64,000 nucleotides of DNA. Origin: an uncultured virus (IMG/VR IMGVR_UViG_2775507275_000005). Its lineage: Duplodnaviria; Heunggongvirae; Uroviricota; Caudoviricetes. The translations under genes and the position numbers were made by a program. The notes below the pieces were generated by a model. The model was not told where the DNA came from, did no database searches, and saw only the letters and a list, made by a program, of their open reading frames with translations. Below are positions 16,376 through 50,987 of this stretch, piece after piece. Position 1 is the stretch's first letter. Each line of letters starts with the position of its first letter. The DNA lies in the IMG/VR virus record IMGVR_UViG_2775507275_000005. The stretch is one strand, 5' to 3'.

Positions 16376-16506
16376 CGCAATGTCGCTCGTCTCGTCGGCC
16401 TGCGTAATGCAGTCGCATGAACTCGATGACCGCCACAGCCGCACGCACCCCGTGCGGACGACGGCGAAACATCAGAACAGCCATATCAGCTCCGGGCGCG
16501 GAAACG

Positions 16507-16537
16507 AAAAAGCCCGCGAGGCTTTCACCTTGCGGGC
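16507..16537 (-). terminator. Intrinsic terminator
   Basis: GCCCGCAAGG...CCTCGCGGGC followed by T5 on the minus strand. Confidence 0.6.
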
Positions 16538-16562
16538 AACCATATCAGCCGGCAATGTCGCT

Positions 16563-16847
16563 TCAGCGACGATCAACGGTGACAGTAGACTTCCCCACAG
16601 CAGACGCGTATTGGTTGAGCGCATAAACGCATTTCATGAACTCTGCGTCAATGTTCCGCGCCTCCGTCAACACCTCCTGAACCAAATCAGCATCAAATAC
16701 CGCAATATGCATGCGCCCCGGAGGCACCCCGTGCCCAACCGCATCTCTGAGTTTGCCAAGTGCCTTGTTGCGTTGCTCCCGAAGCTGCTCAAATATTTCA
16801 AGCGTCGCGTGGTAACGCCCGAGCACTTCGTAATTCGGTTCAGCCAT
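16563..16847 (-). CDS. Hypothetical protein
   Basis: GGAGG RBS, MAEPNYEVLGRYH, 94 aa, flanked by terminators. Confidence 0.7.
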   Translation of the reverse strand: MAEPNYEVLGRYHATLEIFEQLREQRNKALGKLRDAVGHGVPPGRMHIAVFDADLVQEVLTEARNIDAEFMKCVYALNQYASAVGKSTVTVDRR

Positions 16848-44180: not shown

Positions 44181-45968
44181 ATGGTCCAGAAGTTCACTGA
44201 GAAGGATTTCCACAAGGAAATCGCCGAGCTGCAGGCCGAGCTGCGGCGCGACATCGAGGCCCATGCAACGGGCCTCGATCCGTCACCGGCCGCGCGCCTG
44301 GAACGCCGTCGACGCGTGCTCGTCGACGGCGACTATCAGTTCTTCGCGTACACGTATTTCCCGCATCACATTCGCGGCACGCCGTCGCTGTTCCAGGCGC
44401 ACTTCTGCGGGCGGTTCCCGAAGCTGCTGCGCCAGCCTGGCGGCACGCGTGAATGGTGGGTCGCGCCGCGCGGCGAGGCGAAGTCGTCGATGTGCACGAA
44501 GATCGGTCCCGTCTACATCATCGTGCAGGGGCTGCTGCAGCGTGAGGAAGTCCGGCGCGAGGTCGGCTGGACCGGCGAGCTGCCGTCGTTTCTCGACTAC
44601 GTCATCTTGCTCGGCGCGGAGACGTCGCTGCCGACCAAACTGCTCGAAGTCGTTAAAACGGAGCTGACCGCTAACGCGGCGCTTCAGCTCGACTTCCCCG
44701 AGGTGTGCGGCAAGGGGCCGATGTGGAAGGTCGGCGAGTTCGTCACGAAGAACGGCGTGAAGGTCGAGCCGTTCGGTGCCGAGCAGGCGATTCGCGGCAC
44801 GTTCCACGGCGCGAGCCGTCCCAAGGTGCTGATGGGCGATGACCTGATCACCGACGCGGAGGCGAAGAGTCCGACCGAACGCCAGAATCGCTGGACATGG
44901 CTGGAAAAGGCGATCGACTACCTCGGCCCGCCCGACGGCAGCGTGAAATACATCGGCGTCGGCACGGTGCTGGACAAGGATGATCCGATCTCGCGCGCGA
45001 AGCGCACGATCGGCCATATCGTCCATCATTTCCGCGCGATCGCGCAGATGCCGACGAACATGGATCTGTGGCAGCAGTGCGAAGCGCTGATGCTGAACGA
45101 CGACAAGCCGGCGATCGAAGAGGCCGCCGCGCGTGGTGAGGCGATCGCCGACACCGATCTGCCATCGTATCAGTTCTACCTGGAACACCGGGCCGAGATG
45201 GACGCTGGCGCCGTCACGTCGTGGCCATCGGTGCGCACGCTGTTCTATCTGATGCGTCAGCGTGCGAAATCGCCGCGCGCGTTCGCGACCGAGATGCAGG
45301 GCGATCCGCGCACCGAAGAAGACAAGGTGTTCGGTCACATCACGTTCTGGGTGCAGCGATTGCAGTCCTGGTTGATGTTCGGCGCGTGCGATCCATCGAT
45401 GGGGCAAGGCAGGAAGTCGGACCCGTCCGCGATCTTGGTCGGCGGTCTGGACATCGTCAGTCGCAAGCTGCACGTCATCCACGCGGAGATCAAGCGCCGC
45501 GTGCCGTCGAAGCTCGAAGCTGACCTGATCAAGGTTCAACGTGAATTCCGGTGCCGCGCGTTCGGCTTCGAAAACAACAATGCGTATGAATGGGCGCGAC
45601 AGGATCTGATCAAGGCCGCATTGCGGGCCGGCGTGCCGTTACCGCTCGTCGGCGTCACGGCGAGCGTCGCACCCGAGTTGCGGATCGATTCATTGGAGCC
45701 GTTCGTCACGGATCGCATTACGCCATCGATTTTGTTCCACGCGACGCAAACTGCGCTGCTCGCCGAGCTGGATGAATGGCCGGAGCCGCAGGGCCATCAC
45801 CACTTTGACGGCCTGACCGCGCTGCACATTCTTTGGATGATCGCGCAGTCGCGCGGCTACGGCATCACGGACGGTTACGAGGCGGTCACGTCCCGGCCGA
45901 TCGAGCGCGGTGCCGATCACGATGACGACGACTATGACTATCCGCTGTCGAGCCGGCGCGGCTATTGA
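44181..45968 (+). CDS. Terminase large subunit
   Basis: APRGEAKS, RP...MGDD, VGTVL, GACDPSMG, HFDG. Confidence 0.92.
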   Translation: MVQKFTEKDFHKEIAELQAELRRDIEAHATGLDPSPAARLERRRRVLVDGDYQFFAYTYFPHHIRGTPSLFQAHFCGRFPKLLRQPGGTREWWVAPRGEAKSSMCTKIGPVYIIVQGLLQREEVRREVGWTGELPSFLDYVILLGAETSLPTKLLEVVKTELTANAALQLDFPEVCGKGPMWKVGEFVTKNGVKVEPFGAEQAIRGTFHGASRPKVLMGDDLITDAEAKSPTERQNRWTWLEKAIDYLGPPDGSVKYIGVGTVLDKDDPISRAKRTIGHIVHHFRAIAQMPTNMDLWQQCEALMLNDDKPAIEEAAARGEAIADTDLPSYQFYLEHRAEMDAGAVTSWPSVRTLFYLMRQRAKSPRAFATEMQGDPRTEEDKVFGHITFWVQRLQSWLMFGACDPSMGQGRKSDPSAILVGGLDIVSRKLHVIHAEIKRRVPSKLEADLIKVQREFRCRAFGFENNNAYEWARQDLIKAALRAGVPLPLVGVTASVAPELRIDSLEPFVTDRITPSILFHATQTALLAELDEWPEPQGHHHFDGLTALHILWMIAQSRGYGITDGYEAVTSRPIERGADHDDDDYDYPLSSRRGY

Positions 45969-45979
45969 GGAAACTGAAC

Positions 45980-47569
45980 ATGGCTCAAATTCTTGATATG
46001 TACGGACAGCCGATCCAGCGCGAGGTGCTGTCCGAGCCGCAGACGTCGAAGCTCGGCTGGATCACGCGCGATTTTGCGCAGCATCCGTCGCGAGGCCTCA
46101 CGCCGAAGAAGCTGCATTCGATCCTGGAAGCCGCCGAGTACGGCGACCTGATGGCGCAGTCCGATCTGTTCGTCGACATGGAGGAACGCGACGCGCACCT
46201 GTTCGCCGAGATGAGCAAGCGCAAGCGCGCGCTGCTCACGCTCGACTGGAACATCGTCGCACCCGCGAATGCCAGCGCCGAAGAGAAAAAGCAAACCGCG
46301 CAGTTGGATGAGTGGTTCACCGACATCGCCAACTTCGACGACGTGCTATTCGATCTGATGGACGCGGTCGGCCACGGTTTCTCGGCGCAGGAGATCGAGT
46401 GGCACCAGGTCGAGAAGGTATGGCTCCCGAAAACGCTTACTCACCGGCCGCAGCGCTGGTTCCGCACGCCGCTGTACGACGGCAACGATCTGCGTCTGCG
46501 TGACAACTCGTCGGACGGCCAACCGCTCTGGCCGTTCGGATGGCTCGTGCACAAGCATCGCGCGAAGAGTGGGTATCTGACCCGCGCAGGTCTGCACCGC
46601 GTGTTGGCATGGCCGTACCTGTTCAAGACCTATGCCGTGTCGGACCTCGCCGAGTTCCTCGAAATCTACGGTCTGCCGCTGCGCGTCGGCAAGTATCCGC
46701 CCGGTTCGACGAAGGAAGAGAAAGCCACGCTGCTGCGCGCGGTCGCCGAGATCGGCCACAACGCGGCCGGCATCATCCCCGAAGGGATGCTGATCGAGTT
46801 CAAGGAAGCCGCCGACGGCTCGAAAGATCCGTTCGAGGCGATGATCAACTGGTGCGAGAAAAGCGTGTCGAAGGCGATCCTGGGCGGCACGCTGACGTCG
46901 CAGGCCGATGGCAAAACGTCGACGAACGCACTCGGCAAGACGCATAACGAGGTGCGGCAGGATCTGTTGACGTCGGACGCCCGCCAGGCGCAGCGCACAC
47001 TCACGAGCCTCTGTTACATGCTGTCGGCTCTGAACTTCGGCGCATCCGACCCGCGCCGCTGCCCGCGTTTCGAATTCGATACGCGCGACCCTGCGGACTT
47101 GGCGCTGTATGCCGATGCGATTCCGAAGTTCGTCGGAGCCGGAATGAAAATCGGCCGCCAGTGGGCGCAGGACAAGCTCATGATCCCGGAGCCGAAGGAC
47201 GGCGAAGACATCCTCACGGTGCCGAAGCCGCAGATGGCGCTGCCGCCCGAAGAGCGTACCGACGAGCTGCCGCGTACCGCGAAGATGCGGTATCGCGCCG
47301 TGCTGCGCAATGCGGCCGGCGAGATCGTCTATCCCGACCAGGACGAGCTGGACCAGACGGTTGCCGCGCTACCGGCCGACGCGATCACCGAGGCGCTGCG
47401 CGCCACGCTCGGACCGGCGATCGCGGCGCTGCGTCGGGGCGCGACGCCTGACGAGGCGATCGAGATGCTGCTCGAAGCGCAGCCGGACATGGACGATACG
47501 GCGATGCAGGAGCTGCTCGCGCGCTGCATCTTCGTGGCCGACGTGTGGGGGCGGCTGAATGGCGGTTGA
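45980..47569 (+). CDS. Portal protein (DUF935, Mu gp29)
   Basis: HPSRGLTP, DMEERDAH, FLEIYGLPLRVGKY, SKAILGGTLT. Confidence 0.93.
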   Translation: MAQILDMYGQPIQREVLSEPQTSKLGWITRDFAQHPSRGLTPKKLHSILEAAEYGDLMAQSDLFVDMEERDAHLFAEMSKRKRALLTLDWNIVAPANASAEEKKQTAQLDEWFTDIANFDDVLFDLMDAVGHGFSAQEIEWHQVEKVWLPKTLTHRPQRWFRTPLYDGNDLRLRDNSSDGQPLWPFGWLVHKHRAKSGYLTRAGLHRVLAWPYLFKTYAVSDLAEFLEIYGLPLRVGKYPPGSTKEEKATLLRAVAEIGHNAAGIIPEGMLIEFKEAADGSKDPFEAMINWCEKSVSKAILGGTLTSQADGKTSTNALGKTHNEVRQDLLTSDARQAQRTLTSLCYMLSALNFGASDPRRCPRFEFDTRDPADLALYADAIPKFVGAGMKIGRQWAQDKLMIPEPKDGEDILTVPKPQMALPPEERTDELPRTAKMRYRAVLRNAAGEIVYPDQDELDQTVAALPADAITEALRATLGPAIAALRRGATPDEAIEMLLEAQPDMDDTAMQELLARCIFVADVWGRLNGG

Positions 47570-48872
47570 TCTGGCCTACGCGATCGGCCTCGAACCGGAG
47601 AAAGCGATCGCCTACTTCGAGTCGAAGGGCTACCAGATCGGATTCCGCTGGCAGGACGTCGCCGCCGAGGCGCACGCGAAGGCGTTCACGGTTGCCGGCG
47701 TGATGAAGGTCGACGTGCTGCAGGACATTCGCCAGGCGCTCACGACGTCGTTAAAAAAGGGCACGACGTTCGACGAGTTTAAACGGCAGCTTTCGCCGGT
47801 CCTGGAACGCAAGGGTTGGCTCGGCCAGGGCGTAATAGTCGACCCGGACACTGGCGAGATCGAGGGCAAGCGGCTCACGCCCCGTCGCTTGCAGACGATC
47901 TTCCAGACCAACATGCAGTCGGCCTACATGGCCGGCCGCTACGCGACGCAGCTCGAGCAGGTCGACACGCATCCGTATTGGGAGTACGTCGCGGTGCTCG
48001 ATAGCCGCACGCGGCCGGCGCACCGCGCGCTCGCCGGCGCGATCTACCGGTACGACGATCCGTTCTGGCAGACGTTCTATCCGCCGAACGGCTACCGGTG
48101 CCGGTGCCGCGTGCGGACCCGCACGCGCGCGTATGTCGAACAGAACGGTATCCCGGTACGCGACAGCAAGGGGAACATCGTCGAGGTCGAGATCGTCGAT
48201 CGCTCCGGCGCGAAACAGCCCGCGCTCGCCTATAAAGACCCGGCCACCGGTCAGAAGCTGCTGCCGGACCCGGGTTTCAGCTCGAACCCCGGCGCGCAGT
48301 GGATGAAGCCATTCACACCGCCACCGTCCGACAGCTTGCCGCGCACCTTCCCGTCCGGCGTCGAGCTGCCGACGGTGCCGACGCCGACCCCGGTGCCGGC
48401 GTCGACCATGCTGCCGGCCGGCCTTCCCCCGCAGCAATACGCGCAGGCGTTCCTGCGGGAGTTCGGCCTGCAGCTCGGCGAGTCGACGGTATTCAAGGAC
48501 GTCACGCGCTCGGCCGTCACGATCTCGGAGGATCTGTTCCAGGCCGGCGACGGAAGCTGGAAGGCGGACAAGGATGGGCGCGGCGCGTATATGTCGCTGC
48601 TCGCGCGGGCGATCCAGGAACCGGACGAGGTATGGCTGCGGTGGGAAGAGAGTCGCGCGCAGCCCGGGACGTGGTTGCTCAAACGGCGCTACATCAAGTC
48701 CTGGTTGATCGACGGCCAGGCTGGCGCGCAATACGGTCTGAGCGTCTTCGAGCTGGGCCAGGACGGCTGGGCCGGGTCGACGGCCATGATGGCGAACGTC
48801 GAGCGCGGCGAGGAAGCGCGCCGTCGCTATATAGAGAAGCAGCGTGACGGTTTTCTGGCGTACCGCAAATAG
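47559..48872 (+). CDS. MuF (Mu gp30) head protein with C-terminal PBECR2-like nuclease domain
   Basis: RLQTIFQTN, DSRTRPAH, YPPNGYRCRC; C-terminal LLARAIQEPDEVW..RRYIK..GWAGST..YIEKQRDG. Confidence 0.85.
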   Translation: MAVDLAYAIGLEPEKAIAYFESKGYQIGFRWQDVAAEAHAKAFTVAGVMKVDVLQDIRQALTTSLKKGTTFDEFKRQLSPVLERKGWLGQGVIVDPDTGEIEGKRLTPRRLQTIFQTNMQSAYMAGRYATQLEQVDTHPYWEYVAVLDSRTRPAHRALAGAIYRYDDPFWQTFYPPNGYRCRCRVRTRTRAYVEQNGIPVRDSKGNIVEVEIVDRSGAKQPALAYKDPATGQKLLPDPGFSSNPGAQWMKPFTPPPSDSLPRTFPSGVELPTVPTPTPVPASTMLPAGLPPQQYAQAFLREFGLQLGESTVFKDVTRSAVTISEDLFQAGDGSWKADKDGRGAYMSLLARAIQEPDEVWLRWEESRAQPGTWLLKRRYIKSWLIDGQAGAQYGLSVFELGQDGWAGSTAMMANVERGEEARRRYIEKQRDGFLAYRK

Positions 48873-48876
48873 AAAA

Positions 48877-48957
48877 GCCCGCGACGCCGACTCGTCGCGG
48901 GCCACCGTGCAGTTCCTTTGGTCGCGTCAGTCGGAAGCTTGTGCGACTGCAATCGGT
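48877..48957 (+). ncRNA. Candidate structured RNA (kissing loop) downstream of MuF
   Basis: 10-bp stem with loop CCGACT; the second hairpin loop contains AGTCGG. Confidence 0.4.
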
Positions 48958-48975
48958 ATGAACAGAGTATAGCCG

Positions 48976-49560
48976 ATGATTGAAACCCAGGTCGATGACA
49001 CGCAGTACGAGGCGGCGATGGCGCGGGTGTACGCGCTGATGCAGGATGCCTCGCCGATCACGTCGCTGATCGCCGCGCTGATGCTCGACGCAGTCGAAGA
49101 GAATTTCGCGCAACAGGGGCGGCCGAAGTGGCTCGGGTTGAGTCCGAAGACGCTCAAGCGCCGCCGCGAGGAAGCCGGCACCGGCAAGATTCTGCAGCGC
49201 TCAGGCCGACTCGCGTCGAGCGTCACGTCGACGCACGACGCCACGTCCGCCCGCGTCGGCACTAATGTCGTATACGCGGCGATCCACCAGTTCGGCGGCA
49301 CGATCCAGCGCCATCCCATGTCCGGCTACGTTAGATTGCGCAAGGGCCGCGACGGCATGATCATGCGCCAGGCGAACCACCCGCACCTGGCCGTGTTCGC
49401 GAAGAACGGCCACAAGCAGGTCAAGATCGTGAAATGGACCCGTAGCCAGGGCTGGACGATCAAGATTCCGGCGCGTCCGGTCTTCGTGCTGACCGAGGCG
49501 GACAATATCGGGATCGAGTCGGAGGTTTCCGCCTACCTGCGCCGCCTATTCGATGCTTGA
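48976..49560 (+). CDS. Virion morphogenesis protein (Mu gpG)
   Basis: ENFAQQGRPKW..L, ILQRSGRL, VGTNVVYAAIHQFGG, IPARP. Confidence 0.92.
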   Translation: MIETQVDDTQYEAAMARVYALMQDASPITSLIAALMLDAVEENFAQQGRPKWLGLSPKTLKRRREEAGTGKILQRSGRLASSVTSTHDATSARVGTNVVYAAIHQFGGTIQRHPMSGYVRLRKGRDGMIMRQANHPHLAVFAKNGHKQVKIVKWTRSQGWTIKIPARPVFVLTEADNIGIESEVSAYLRRLFDA

Positions 49561-49800
49561 GTGGCGGCAAAAGGCCGAAATGGAAAATTAGGGCCTAGAA
49601 GCCGCTGGGATACTGTGGGGTTGCCGAGGTATAGGTCAGGACTGGCGAAGCCCGCCACGTTGTTTAACCCCCCCGTTAAAAACGATTTCTTATCGGGAGG
49701 GTGTTGAGAAAAACTGTTCGGGCTCGGGAAAACCGAAAATCGCCAGTGCGAGATACGCCCGGCGCATGAGATTTTTTCCATGCGCGCAGTATAGCGGCCC
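49561..49800. other. Non-coding G-I interval, candidate strong gyrase site
   Basis: AT-richer with A-tracts; same position as the Mu SGS; ~18.5 kb from the left end. Confidence 0.5.
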
Positions 49801-49827
49801 CCTCGTGGCGGATGACGGCAGGCCCAA

Positions 49828-49871
49828 CTGACCTCTGCCAGCTCGTCAGGCCCGCTACTGGCCGCCACCAT
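49828..49871 (+). promoter_or_regulatory. Late promoter, PI-like
   Basis: CTGACCTC, CACCAT starting 38 nt later, ATG 6 nt after that. Confidence 0.65.
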
Positions 49872-49877
49872 GGCGGC

Positions 49878-50987
49878 ATGGCTACTTTCTTCATCGCGGC
49901 ACTTTCCGCGCAAATCCAGTCCACCGGCACGACGCTCAAGCTGCTGCCGGCCGGCGAGTTCCGTGCGCGGGACGGCCGGCCGACCCAATGCGCCGCGTGG
50001 CGGCTCGATGCGGCTGGCGCGGAACGCCTCATCGCGGCGGCCAGCGCGCGCCAGACCCGCTATGTGATCGACTATGAGCACCAGACGCTGAACTCGGCGA
50101 CGAACGGCCAGCCCGCGCCGGCCGCTGCCTGGTTCAAGACGCTGGAATGGCGCGAAGGCGACGGTCTGTACGCGACCGACGTCAAATGGACCGCTCGCGC
50201 CTCCTTGATGCTCGACGCCGACGAATACGCCTACATCTCTCCCGTGTTCGCCTTTGACAAGGCGGGCAACGTGACCGCGCTGCTCAATGCGGCGCTGACC
50301 AACGACCCCGCGCTCGACTGTCTCGACGAGGTGCAGCTCACGGCTGCCTGCTCGGCGGCGATGCACGCATTCGACTCCGCCGCGCACGCGGCGCTTTCCA
50401 CTGTCCTACCTACCGAGGTTCCCAATATGGAAGAACTCCTGGAACAACTGCGCTGGCTGCTGAACATGCCGGTCGGCGCGACCGCCGATGACGTCACGGC
50501 CCAGCTCAAGAAGCTGATCGAATCGCTGTCCGGCGGCCAGGGCGTCGCGGCCGCGAGCGCCAACCTGCCGGCGTTGCTCGACGCGCAGCGCAGCCAGATC
50601 GCCACGCTCACGGCAAACCAGGCCGACCCGGCGCGCTTCGTGCCGATCGCGGTCATGACCGACCTGCGCACGCAGCTCGACGCGGCCAACGCGAAGCTCG
50701 CCGGCAACGAAGTCGAGGAACTGGTGACGGCCGCGCTGAAGAACGGCCGCCTGCTGCCTGCGCAGGAAGGCTGGGCGCGCGACCTGGGCAAGAGCAACGT
50801 CGCCGCGCTGAAGCAATTCATCTCGACCGCTCAGCCGATCCAAGCGCTCGGCGGCACGCAGACGGGCGGCAACCCGCCGGCCGACGACAGAACGGGCGCT
50901 GCCGCGCTGTCGGCCGAAGAACTCGCCGTGTGTAAGGCGCTCGGCCTCGACCCTGCGACCTACAAGACGTCGCAGCCGGCCGCCTGA
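49878..50987 (+). CDS. Mu gpI protease/scaffold
   Basis: LLPAGEFRARDGRP, IDYEHQT, PAAAW, YISPVF, ALTNDPAL. Confidence 0.92.
   Translation: MATFFIAALSAQIQSTGTTLKLLPAGEFRARDGRPTQCAAWRLDAAGAERLIAAASARQTRYVIDYEHQTLNSATNGQPAPAAAWFKTLEWREGDGLYATDVKWTARASLMLDADEYAYISPVFAFDKAGNVTALLNAALTNDPALDCLDEVQLTAACSAAMHAFDSAAHAALSTVLPTEVPNMEELLEQLRWLLNMPVGATADDVTAQLKKLIESLSGGQGVAAASANLPALLDAQRSQIATLTANQADPARFVPIAVMTDLRTQLDAANAKLAGNEVEELVTAALKNGRLLPAQEGWARDLGKSNVAALKQFISTAQPIQALGGTQTGGNPPADDRTGAAALSAEELAVCKALGLDPATYKTSQPAA
50427..50987 (+). CDS. Internal-start scaffold (Mu gpZ-like)
   Basis: GAGGT RBS and in-frame ATG (MEELLEQLRWLL). Confidence 0.6.
   Translation: MEELLEQLRWLLNMPVGATADDVTAQLKKLIESLSGGQGVAAASANLPALLDAQRSQIATLTANQADPARFVPIAVMTDLRTQLDAANAKLAGNEVEELVTAALKNGRLLPAQEGWARDLGKSNVAALKQFISTAQPIQALGGTQTGGNPPADDRTGAAALSAEELAVCKALGLDPATYKTSQPAA

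What the first reader, a model, noticed from the sequence alone, without database searches (positions are those of the whole stretch)
47559..48975. MuF with a putative RNase tip, no protein immunity gene, and a kissing-loop RNA candidate directly downstream
Seen: MuF carries a C-terminal extension after a Pro-rich linker, and the next gene is structural gpG. The 103-nt gap folds into hairpin 1 (GCCCGCGACG/CGTCGCGGGC, 48877-48902, loop CCGACT) and hairpin 2 (ACCG-TGCA..GTCGCG / TGCGAC-TGCA..CGGT, 48904-48957). The loop of hairpin 2 contains AGTCGG (48929-48934), the exact complement of loop 1. Known: MuF proteins can carry C-terminal toxins, normally followed by immunity genes; BECR-fold domains are RNases; type III antitoxins are pseudoknotted RNAs. 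Inference: the RNA is the antitoxin, substrate or cofactor of a virion-associated nuclease, or a processing site controlling late mRNA. Alternative: hairpin 1 is only a minus-strand terminator, since it is preceded by AAAA.
Basis: partly seen in the sequence, partly recalled or inferred. Interest (0 to 1): 0.8.

Follow-up and report, generated by a model that had tools for sequence, protein, structure and literature searches.

The report
Phage small RNA paired with MuF nuclease
The gap after this Mu-like prophage's MuF gene most likely encodes a new, widely conserved 90-base RNA, read from the opposite strand, that occurs only beside MuF proteins with an intact nuclease-like tip and may be that tip's missing antidote or partner.

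Summary
MuF (47559-48872) carries a full PBECR2 domain. gpG follows after 103 nt that hold no ORF.

Comparison with about 240 related loci shows a conserved structured RNA, but on the minus strand:
- The alignment is 94.4% paired, and 20 of 32 pairs show compensatory changes.
- G-U pairs favour the minus strand 42 to 6.
- The loop-loop hexamers covary. In a sister family all 6 kissing pairs change on both sides and stay 100% paired.

Among 94 unique PBECR2 domains whose gpG could be located, 69 of 69 with an intact K-K-R motif have the gap, and 21 of 25 with a degraded motif lack it. After phylogenetic correction only 3 independent contrasts remain.

There is no Rfam match and I found no paper describing it. 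My best reading is an RNA partner or antidote of the virion nuclease domain. No binding, cleavage or expression has been shown.

The parts
47559..48872 (+). MuF head protein, 437 aa: Phage_Mu_F domain, Pro-rich linker, C-terminal PBECR2 domain
   Evidence: ORF list and Pfam
48447..48866 (+). PBECR2 (PF18810) domain, MuF residues 297-436. It contains no histidine.
   Evidence: 102.3 bits, E 2.6e-29. The AF2 model shows a helix followed by four strands. No His in the domain.
48561..48581 (+). Codons of K335, K338 and R341 (motif W-K-A-D-K-x-x-R-G). Together with T408 (48780-48782) these form the signature that tracks the RNA gap.
   Evidence: Alignments A2 and A3; tables
48966..48971 (-). -10 box TATACT of the small-RNA promoter. 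It overlaps the ribosome-binding region of gpG on the other strand.
   Evidence: TCGACC-18-TATACT. T, A, T and the final T are at least 90% conserved among the 25 relatives. TATAnT occurs on the minus strand in 37 of 54 gaps and on the plus strand in 6 of 54.
48990..48995 (-). Weak -35-like hexamer TCGACC, inside the first codons of gpG
   Evidence: only; its conservation was not tested
48867..48959 (-). Predicted small RNA of about 90 nt. The start near 48959 is inferred from the -10 box; the 3' end lies in the U-tract.
   Evidence: Covariance model R1 matches 48866-48959 on the minus strand at 105.9 bits, E 3e-23. Structure. Both ends are inferred, not measured.
48904..48957 (-). P1-P2 hairpin domain. 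P1 pairs 48945-48957 with 48904-48915. P2 pairs 48935-48938 with 48924-48928.
   Evidence: P1 has 11 pairs, 7 with changes on both sides, 97.8% paired. P2 has 4 pairs, 89% paired.
48929..48934 (-). P2 loop CCGACU (minus strand), kissing partner 1
   Evidence: for this family; for the sister family
48914..48921 (-). Unpaired internal-loop motif CCAAAGGA, invariant in all 25 relatives
   Evidence: Invariant columns
48877..48902 (-). Its 6-nt loop AGUCGG (48887-48892) is kissing partner 2.
   Evidence: 11 pairs, 9 G-C; 10 pairs, 8 with changes on both sides, 94.1% paired.
48867..48876 (-). U-tract UUUUCUAUUU of the terminator. It overlaps the MuF stop codon (48870-48872).
   Evidence: A minus-strand T-run sits at the MuF stop in 38 of 54 gaps.
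48976..49560 (+). gpG virion morphogenesis protein (Phage_tail_S), the next late gene

Best explanation
The 103-nt gap is a gene for a small RNA of about 90 nt, transcribed from the minus strand and convergent with MuF.

Anatomy:
- Its own sigma-70-type -10 box overlaps the gpG ribosome-binding region.
- It folds into a long hairpin, P1, with an invariant internal loop (CCAAAGGA).
- P1 is capped by a short stem, P2, whose 6-nt loop is CCGACU.
- A terminator hairpin, P3, follows; its 6-nt loop AGUCGG is complementary to the P2 loop.
- The two loops pair, either within one molecule or between molecules.

The RNA is a dedicated companion of the C-terminal PBECR2 (predicted RNase or RNA-binding) domain of MuF. 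The most likely mechanism is that the RNA binds the domain and keeps it harmless in the cell that makes virions, and in lysogens, taking the place of the protein immunity gene that other MuF toxins carry. The RNA-free domain then travels in the virion and acts in a newly infected cell.

Shown here: the RNA structure, its strand, its conservation, and its co-occurrence with an intact domain signature.
Inferred: expression, binding, inhibition, and any nuclease activity.
For: 1. Structure. In 25 relatives 94.4% of cells pair, against 80.7% in shuffles (0 of 500 reach it). 20 of 32 pairs change on both sides. Slid controls give 30-50%.

2. Kissing loops.
- 4 of 6 kissing pairs show double changes in this family.
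- In the sister family of 12 sequences all 6 do, and 72 of 72 cells pair.
- 32 of 57 distinct loop-1 sequences have a complement of at least 5 nt in their own partner window. The maximum in 20,000 permutations was 18.

3. Strand.
- Non-Watson-Crick nested cells are G-U on the minus strand 42 times, against 6 for the plus strand. The sister family gives 21 against 6.
- TATAnT sits next to gpG on the minus strand in 37 of 54 gaps, on the plus strand in 6 of 54. A T-run sits at the MuF stop in 38 of 54.
- All 55 matches of model R1 in 100 loci are on the minus strand directly after MuF.

4. Search from the RNA side. R1 finds 3 places in 2 of 151 genomes of the family. All 3 lie between MuF and gpG.

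5. Link to the domain.
- Of 94 unique PBECR2 domains with gpG located, 69 have intact K-K-R and a gap of at least 70 nt; 0 have intact K-K-R and no gap; 21 are degraded with no gap; 4 are degraded with a gap.
- R341 plus T/S408 both present: 70 with a gap, 2 without.
- These positions fit the Arg-in-helix plus Ser/Thr-in-strand-4 configuration that Iyer et al. 2017 describe for PBECR (PMC5512222, section read) when mapped on the model's helix-plus-four-strands order.
- Phage Mu (MuF_C, called inactive by Iyer et al.) and BcepMu (short MuF) have no gap.

6. [quoted passage not shown] 2017, PMC5576092, passages read).

7. Other long-MuF families carry other structured gaps at the same place. The domain families were called; I sorted the gap types by eye.
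Against: - There is no expression evidence.
- No binding, cleavage or toxicity data exist for any PBECR2 domain that I could find.
- The domain-RNA association is strongly phylogenetic. Only 3 independent contrasts lie on well-supported branches. All go the same way, but the sign test gives p = 0.25.
- The RNA gene abuts the domain's codons, so joint inheritance as one cassette could produce the correlation without any physical interaction.
- Searches were seeded with patterns from RNA-associated domains, which biases that sample.
- Three PBECR2 relatives with a different motif (L088, L100, L107), and L196 with two of the three K-K-R residues, do have gaps.
- The model matched no solved BECR structure (Foldseek: nothing at E <= 0.001; VIA best Z 4.1). 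The RNase assignment therefore rests on the Pfam profile alone.
- The domain has no histidine.
- The RNA is fully complementary to the late mRNA, which by itself suggests an antisense role.
- Single-sequence folding is not exceptional.
Confidence: 0.45

Rival explanations
1. Cis-antisense regulator, type I-like. The small RNA pairs with the complementary F-G intercistronic part of the late mRNA. This triggers cleavage or blocks gpG translation and so tunes MuF or gpG output. The protein domain is not a direct partner.
For: - Convergent orientation; the RNA is complementary to the late mRNA over its whole length.
- Its promoter overlaps the gpG ribosome-binding region.
- Convergent, 3'-overlapping antisense RNAs are known in type I toxin-antitoxin systems and often start pairing by loop-loop contacts (recalled, not checked here).
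Against: - Antisense pairing needs no complementarity between two loops of the same strand, yet that complementarity covaries.
- An unpaired 8-nt motif is invariant in 25 of 25 sequences, which looks like a protein or tertiary contact.
- The overlap with the MuF reading frame is only the stop codon.
- It does not explain why the element tracks the K-K-R-T state of the domain, unless only active domains need repression.
Confidence: 0.2
2. Assembly or packaging RNA.
For: - The gene sits in the head module between portal/MuF and gpG/protease.
- Two 6-nt loops with conserved complementarity could pair within or between molecules.
- phi29 pRNA uses covarying intermolecular loops (recalled).
Against: - Close relatives with short or degraded MuF tips lack the RNA. 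I take them to be functional phages, so it is not a general assembly factor.
- No Rfam pRNA match.
- By my rough helix-length estimate (not a computation) an intramolecular kiss is also feasible.
Confidence: 0.1
3. Anti-defence or decoy RNA (for example a tRNA mimic) that merely shares a cassette with MuF tips and acts on host systems, not on MuF.
For: At the same position in an Erwinia prophage (L019) the element matches Rfam tRNA at 37.9 bits (gathering score 29) on the minus strand, with an aberrant anticodon arm. Other loci show T-arm-like motifs by eye.
Against: - The window's RNA matches no tRNA model.
- This reading does not predict the strict link to the domain signature.
Confidence: 0.1
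4. Plus-strand mRNA element: a processing site, attenuator or translational control of gpG within the late transcript.
For: It lies between two co-oriented late genes, and the hairpins exist on either strand.
Against: - G-U against A-C asymmetry of 42:6 and 21:6 favours the minus strand.
- The conserved -10 box and the U-tract are on the minus strand.
- No T-run follows hairpin 1 on the plus strand.
Confidence: 0.05
5. DNA-level feature: a gyrase or protein-binding site, a recombination joint of the tip cassette, or a plain bidirectional terminator with no RNA product of its own.
For: - Mu-like genomes hold a central gyrase site.
- Hairpin 1 is flanked by an A-run and some T.
- The tip looks like a swapped cassette. 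From the identities I estimate that the window and L003 are about 90% identical in the N-terminal part but 43% in the tip.
Against: - In Mu the gyrase site is annotated between G and I, not between F and G.
- Compensatory changes in three helices and in the loop-loop helix, plus the strand asymmetry, are not expected for duplex DNA.
- Hairpin 1 is not a dispersed repeat.
Confidence: 0.03

Closest known systems
Type III toxin-antitoxin systems (ToxIN, AvcID)
   Same: A non-coding RNA gene lies directly beside a gene for a (predicted) enzyme toxin. No protein antitoxin is present. In those systems the RNA neutralises the protein by binding it (recalled; the AvcID abstract appeared in the listing).
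   Different: - Type III antitoxins are tandem repeats upstream of the toxin on the same strand, and the toxin processes them.
- Here there is one structured unit with no repeats, convergent, with its own promoter and terminator.
- The 'toxin' is a domain of a virion structural protein.
MuF polymorphic toxins with protein immunity (Jamet et al. 2017; MuF-RelA_SpoT)
   Same: A MuF N-terminal domain carries a variable C-terminal effector in temperate phages. The effector end is cassette-like (PMC5576092, passages read).
   Different: Those are followed by a small immunity ORF (89.4% of 191). Here none fits. Jamet et al. left the role of the Proteobacterial C-terminal extensions (Ct_MAD) open.
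PBECR domains of polyvalent and MuF proteins (Iyer et al. 2017)
   Same: The same domain family and the same MuF-PBECR architecture. Those authors predicted RNase or RNA-binding roles (PMC5512222, section 19 read).
   Different: In the passages I read, no companion RNA is mentioned. The proposed targets were host or phage mRNA or CRISPR RNA.
phi29 pRNA
   Same: A phage-encoded structured RNA tied to head and portal proteins, with two loops whose complementarity covaries (recalled).
   Different: No sequence or Rfam similarity. pRNA loops pair over 4 nt between molecules, and pRNA is essential for packaging. This RNA is absent from close relatives.
Antisense RNAs with kissing loops (ColE1 RNAI/RNAII, R1 CopA/CopT; type I txpA/RatA)
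   Same: Small structured RNAs with 6-7-nt loops that pair fully; convergent or antisense gene layout (recalled).
   Different: There the loops pair with the target RNA. Here the two complementary loops are in the same RNA and covary with each other.
Rfam Mu-gpT-DE motif
   Same: Another conserved RNA motif in the head module of Mu-like phages (recalled; the name was seen only in the search listing).
   Different: It lies downstream of gpT, not of MuF. No Rfam family matched the window's gap at E <= 1.

Membership tests
Pfam PBECR2 (PF18810) | Profile match above the gathering score over the whole profile | tested here: met
   102.3 bits against 27.1; profile 1-120 of 120; MuF residues 297-436
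BECR-fold RNases | [quoted passage not shown] | tested here: inconclusive
   The AF2 model (pLDDT 80.7) has H49-64 followed by four strands. Foldseek finds nothing at E <= 0.001 and the VIA best Z is 4.1.
BECR-fold RNases | Active site: His (or Arg in one PBECR family) in the helix plus Ser/Thr in strand 4 (Iyer et al. 2017) | tested here: inconclusive
   There is no His in the domain. R341 lies at the start of the helix and T408 in strand 4, and both are invariant in the 9 RNA-associated domains. Whether PBECR2 is the Arg family was not stated in the text I read.
Type III toxin-antitoxin | Antitoxin RNA made of tandem direct repeats | tested here: not met
   No tandem repeat in 48873-48975. 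Two loci (L073, L132) carry two different elements in tandem.
Type III toxin-antitoxin | Antitoxin upstream of the toxin on the same strand, separated by a terminator | tested here: not met
   The RNA is downstream of MuF and convergent with it
Type III toxin-antitoxin | The RNA binds and inhibits the toxin protein | not testable with these tools
   Needs biochemistry
Type I toxin-antitoxin | Antisense RNA to the mRNA of a small membrane-toxic peptide | tested here: not met
   The neighbour is a 437-aa head protein, and the overlap with its frame is the stop codon only
phi29 pRNA | Match to the Rfam pRNA model | tested here: not met
   No Rfam match at E <= 1 in 47000-50000
phi29 pRNA | Intermolecular pairing of two loops into a ring on the portal | not testable with these tools
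   Loop complementarity is met. Whether it is within or between molecules is unknown.
tRNA / tRNA-like | Match to the tRNA covariance model or to ARAGORN | tested here: not met
   None in the window. Only the positional counterpart in L019 matches.
Rho-independent terminator (minus strand) | G+C-rich hairpin followed by a U-tract | tested here: met
   11 pairs, 9 G-C, tail TTTCTATTTG; kept in relatives

The most novel reading that the evidence does not exclude
Mu-like temperate phages guard a virion-delivered RNase domain with an RNA instead of a protein.

- A small kissing-loop RNA made from its own promoter neutralises the MuF tip in producer cells and lysogens.
- The tip is therefore active only in newly infected cells that lack the RNA.
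- Lysogens are immune to the tips of sibling phages.
- The fast-changing loop hexamers, and the different RNA types beside different PBECR families, would set the specificity.

This would be the first RNA immunity for a polymorphic-toxin-like effector.
Probability: 0.35. Interest if true: 0.9.

Novelty: new variant of a known kind. Interest (0 to 1): 0.8.

Why it matters
Two papers left the same question open. Jamet et al. 2017 could not say what the C-terminal extensions of Proteobacterial MuF proteins do, or why they lack immunity genes. Iyer et al. 2017 could not say what the phage PBECR domains act on.

A conserved RNA gene welded to the intact form of the domain gives both questions a concrete, testable candidate. 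It also adds an RNA family with a textbook-quality covarying loop-loop interaction. The family is unannotated even in two isolated phages, RcapMu and Rhizobium phage RR1-B.

If the RNA is an antidote, it extends RNA antitoxins from abortive-infection loci to virion-delivered effectors. It also suggests that similar gaps after other effector fusions deserve a look.

Tried and rejected
- Own assembly: not held, so I searched the family around the nearest genome instead.
- RNA-seq: no RNA holder was listed, so no reads could be laid.
- ARAGORN found no tRNA in the window or in 16 loci.
- Rfam: nothing for the window. In 24 loci the only hits were a tRNA match in L019 and sub-threshold noise.
- Fold searches of the PBECR2 model gave no clear relative.
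- My first ORF-based gap parser mis-called L043/L044, L049, L062 and L088 because of spurious high-GC ORFs. I corrected this by inspection and by locating gpG with tblastn.
- Alignment A6 (20 sister-family rows) misaligned 8 rows: L214, L216, L212, L221, L152, L220, RR1-B and RcapMu. I dropped those 8 before the count on A7 (12 rows). By eye, RR1-B and RcapMu keep the design.
- The independent-contrast test of domain state against RNA did not reach significance.
- The weak R1 match at 16501-16582 (18.8 bits) looks like an ordinary terminator.
- Literature searches found no description of this RNA. One search was badly framed and uninformative.
- Earlier-findings look-ups returned nothing relevant.
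- I considered a REP-like dispersed repeat and rejected it.
- I considered the Mu gyrase site and rejected it.
Full report
**What is in the window**

The region belongs to the late (head) module of a Mu-like prophage. In order it holds:
- the large terminase;
- Portal_Mu (45965-47569);
- MuF (47559-48872);
- a 103-nt gap;
- gpG/Phage_tail_S (48976-49560);
- a gap of about 300 nt;
- the Mu-like protease I.

MuF has the Phage_Mu_F domain at residues 55-185, then a Pro-rich stretch, then a complete PBECR2 domain at residues 297-436 (102.3 bits; cut-off 27.1). The complementary hexamer AGTCGG lies at 48929-48934. Hairpin 1 is unique in the window, and the gap has no tandem repeat.

On its own the sequence is not remarkable:
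- Fold z-scores are -1.58 on the plus strand and -1.14 on the minus strand.
- The consensus scans are not enriched in the region. They do flag a minus-strand terminator at 48903-48876 and a minus-strand promoter-like site, TCGACC-18-TATACT, ending at 48966.
- No Rfam family matches at E <= 1, and there is no tRNA.

**Relatives**

I collected relatives in two ways.

First, I seeded scans with the whole MuF, or with an alignment of MuFs. This gave 35 loci from species genomes and 80 from viral contigs. I located gpG in each by tblastn. Of the 116 junctions, including the window, 10 had no gpG and 8 were duplicates. That left 98:
- Long MuFs: 54 have a gap of at least 70 nt and 30 have none.
- Short MuFs (301 aa or less): 11 have no gap and 3 have one.
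- Of those 3, two gaps hold stop-free frames of 86 and 68 codons, so they probably carry an inserted gene. The third (L108) is an unrelated AT-rich 79-nt stretch.

Second, I seeded scans with the C-terminal domains that have a gap (alignment A3). This gave 50 metagenome loci and 76 viral loci. That second sample is biased towards the RNA-associated clade.

**The structure, and which strand folds**

I aligned the 25 distinct gaps that share the window's CCTTTGG core. I chose them by that motif, not by loop complementarity. One of them (L125) has a loop mismatch. The alignment is on the minus strand (A4).

RNAalifold gives three helices:
- P1, in window coordinates 48945-48957 with 48904-48915;
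- P2, 48935-48938 with 48924-48928;
- P3, the terminator hairpin, 48877-48902.

After adding the loop-loop helix I counted pairs:
- 94.4% of 789 cells form standard pairs, against 80.7% in shuffles (0 of 500 reach it).
- 20 of 32 pairs change on both sides.
- Sliding the partner by 1-3 columns drops pairing to 30-50%.
- P2 closes a loop of exactly six bases, which is the kissing hexamer. The terminator loop is also exactly six bases.

Four independent signs say the folded strand is the minus strand:
- Among nested pairs, 42 non-Watson-Crick cells are G-U on the minus strand. Only 6 are A-C, which would be G-U on the plus strand.
- TATACT next to the gpG start has its T, A, T and last T at least 90% conserved. 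TATAnT is found there on the minus strand in 37 of 54 gaps, and on the plus strand in 6 of 54.
- An A-run precedes hairpin 1 on the plus strand, which is a U-tract on the minus strand. This holds in 38 of 54 gaps.
- A covariance model of the RNA (R1) hits 55 times in 100 loci, every time on the minus strand directly after the MuF tip.

The RNA would therefore start near 48959, about 7 nt after the -10 box. This start is inferred. It would end in the U-tract 48876-48867, which overlaps the MuF stop codon. The length would be about 90 nt. An unpaired CCAAAGGA (48921-48914) is invariant in all 25 sequences.

**The kissing loops**

The hexamer pair differs between lineages but stays complementary. 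Written as on the plus strand, loop 1 then its partner, examples are:
- CCGACT / AGTCGG (the window);
- CTCGCT / AGCGAG;
- CCGCCG / CGGCGG;
- CCGATT / AATCGG;
- CCGGAT / ATCCGG;
- CTCGTC / GACGAG;
- CCGCCC / GGGCGG.

I ran a permutation test on every unique gap that has a hairpin near the MuF stop. There were 93 of 129, unrelated ones included, holding 57 distinct loop-1 sequences. Of these, 32 of 57 have a perfect complement of at least 5 nt in their own partner window. The maximum in 20,000 permutations was 18.

A sister family has the same design but different sequence. Its internal loop reads CCUCCAAUCC. After I dropped 8 of 20 rows that MAFFT misaligned, 12 rows remained, and they give an independent replicate:
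- 94.5% paired, against 68.1% in shuffles.
- 23 of 26 pairs change on both sides.
- All 6 kissing pairs show double changes, and 72 of 72 cells pair.
- G-U against A-C is 21 to 6 for the minus strand.

R1 also picks up members of this family weakly (L146, L156 and L159, at 30-35 bits), so the two families are probably related.

Whether the loops pair within one molecule or between molecules cannot be told from sequence. By my own rough estimate of helix lengths, which is not a computation, an intramolecular kiss is possible.

**Link to the nuclease-like domain**

From the RNA side, R1 found 3 places in 2 of 151 genomes of the family. All 3 lie between a MuF (92-99% identical) and gpG. In the window it found only the gap itself, at 105.9 bits.

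From the protein side, there are 114 unique PBECR2 tips. For 20 of them gpG was not found. The other 94 divide as follows:
- K335-K338-R341 intact, with a gap: 69.
- Intact, without a gap: 0.
- Not intact, without a gap: 21.
- Not intact, with a gap: 4. These are L196 (two of the three residues) and L088, L100 and L107 (a different K...RERY motif).

R341 together with Thr/Ser at position 408 is present in 70 tips with a gap and in 2 without.

In the AF2 model (pLDDT 80.7), R341 sits at the start of the single long helix and T408 in the fourth strand. Iyer et al. 2017 describe BECR active sites as a His in the helix (an Arg in one PBECR family) plus Ser/Thr in strand 4 (PMC5512222, section 19 read). 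The window's domain has no His at all. The picture is consistent with 'intact, possibly active tip = RNA present; decayed tip = RNA absent'.

Named phages fit this picture:
- Phage Mu, whose tip Iyer et al. call inactive, has F and G overlapping.
- BcepMu has a short MuF and no gap.
- JBD25 has no gap.
- RcapMu and Rhizobium phage RR1-B have unannotated gaps of 92 and 103 nt. By eye these show a -10 box, complementary loops and a terminator on the minus strand.

**Cautions**

- On a tree of the tips, the motif changes at least 9 times and the gap at least 7 times. Only 3 independent contrasts sit on well-supported branches. All 3 go the same way, but the sign test gives p = 0.25.
- The RNA gene touches the tip's last codons, so linkage alone could keep them together. 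From the identities I estimate that the window and L003 are about 90% identical in the N-terminal part but 43% in the tip. This suggests the tip and the RNA travel as one cassette.
- No solved structure resembles the model.
- No expression data could be obtained.

**Other gaps at the same place**

After long MuFs with other tips, the same position holds other elements of 80-180 nt. The tips include weak PBECR3 or MuF_C hits and unknown domains. Most of these elements have a minus-strand TATAnT. I sorted them by eye only. One of them, in an Erwinia prophage (L019), matches Rfam tRNA on the minus strand at 37.9 bits, with the anticodon arm replaced. I did not test these elements for covariation.

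**Reading**

The best-supported explanation is a dedicated RNA partner of the MuF tip, most likely an antidote. Known MuF toxins carry a protein immunity gene at this position (Jamet et al. 2017, passages read), and here only an RNA gene fits.

- An antisense role on the late mRNA is the main rival and is not excluded.
- A pRNA-like assembly role and a decoy role are possible but fit the distribution less well.
- A plus-strand mRNA element and a DNA site are unlikely.

**Novelty**

The MuF-PBECR fusion is published. The RNA is not in Rfam 15, and none of my searches found a paper that describes it. The supplements of the two key papers were not read.

Noticed in passing
window 49561-49874: The gpG-protease gap is about 314 nt and has lower G+C. 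It holds a twice-repeated TTAAC-type motif that is kept in about ten relatives. It also has a second minus-strand CTATACT (49789-49795) followed by a hairpin, and a conserved 7-bp inverted repeat over the start of gene I. In phage Mu the strong gyrase site is annotated in this same G-I gap.
   Followed up: partly
L019 3823-3901 (minus); also L012, L067, L079, L090, L098, L105, L106: At the MuF-gpG position of phages with other long tips there are tRNA-like elements on the minus strand. L019 matches Rfam tRNA at 37.9 bits with a 24-nt insert in place of the anticodon arm. ARAGORN calls none of those I gave it (L012 and L019).
   Followed up: partly
L022, L058, L059, L068, L078, L095, L101 and others, just after the MuF stop: A third kind of gap lies beside weak PBECR3 tips. 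It has a closing stem, a conserved CTACGGCAGGGAG...CACCGTG core, and loops CTCCC / GGGAG that are also complementary. I did not test it for covariation or strand.
   Followed up: no
L073/L219 (gap 215 nt); L132/L133: Two different kissing-loop elements sit in tandem between MuF and gpG, each with its own hexamer pair.
   Followed up: no
L131 (gap 405 nt); L217 (gap 813 nt): Extra DNA lies between the MuF tip and gpG. In L131 the RNA (R1, 43.4 bits) is kept at the gpG side of the insert.
   Followed up: no
L032, L035 (Treponema MAGs): MuF is fused to CdiA_C and to a Gln_amidase (papain-fold toxin) domain. Long downstream stretches could hold protein immunity genes.
   Followed up: no
window 16501-16582 (minus): Weak R1 match (18.8 bits, E 0.01). 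It is a G+C-rich hairpin with a T-run, probably an ordinary terminator.
   Followed up: partly
window 47751-48905 (minus): A 384-codon open frame runs antisense to MuF and starts inside the RNA. I take it as the usual high-GC antisense artefact, because its GTG start is not kept in relatives.
   Followed up: partly
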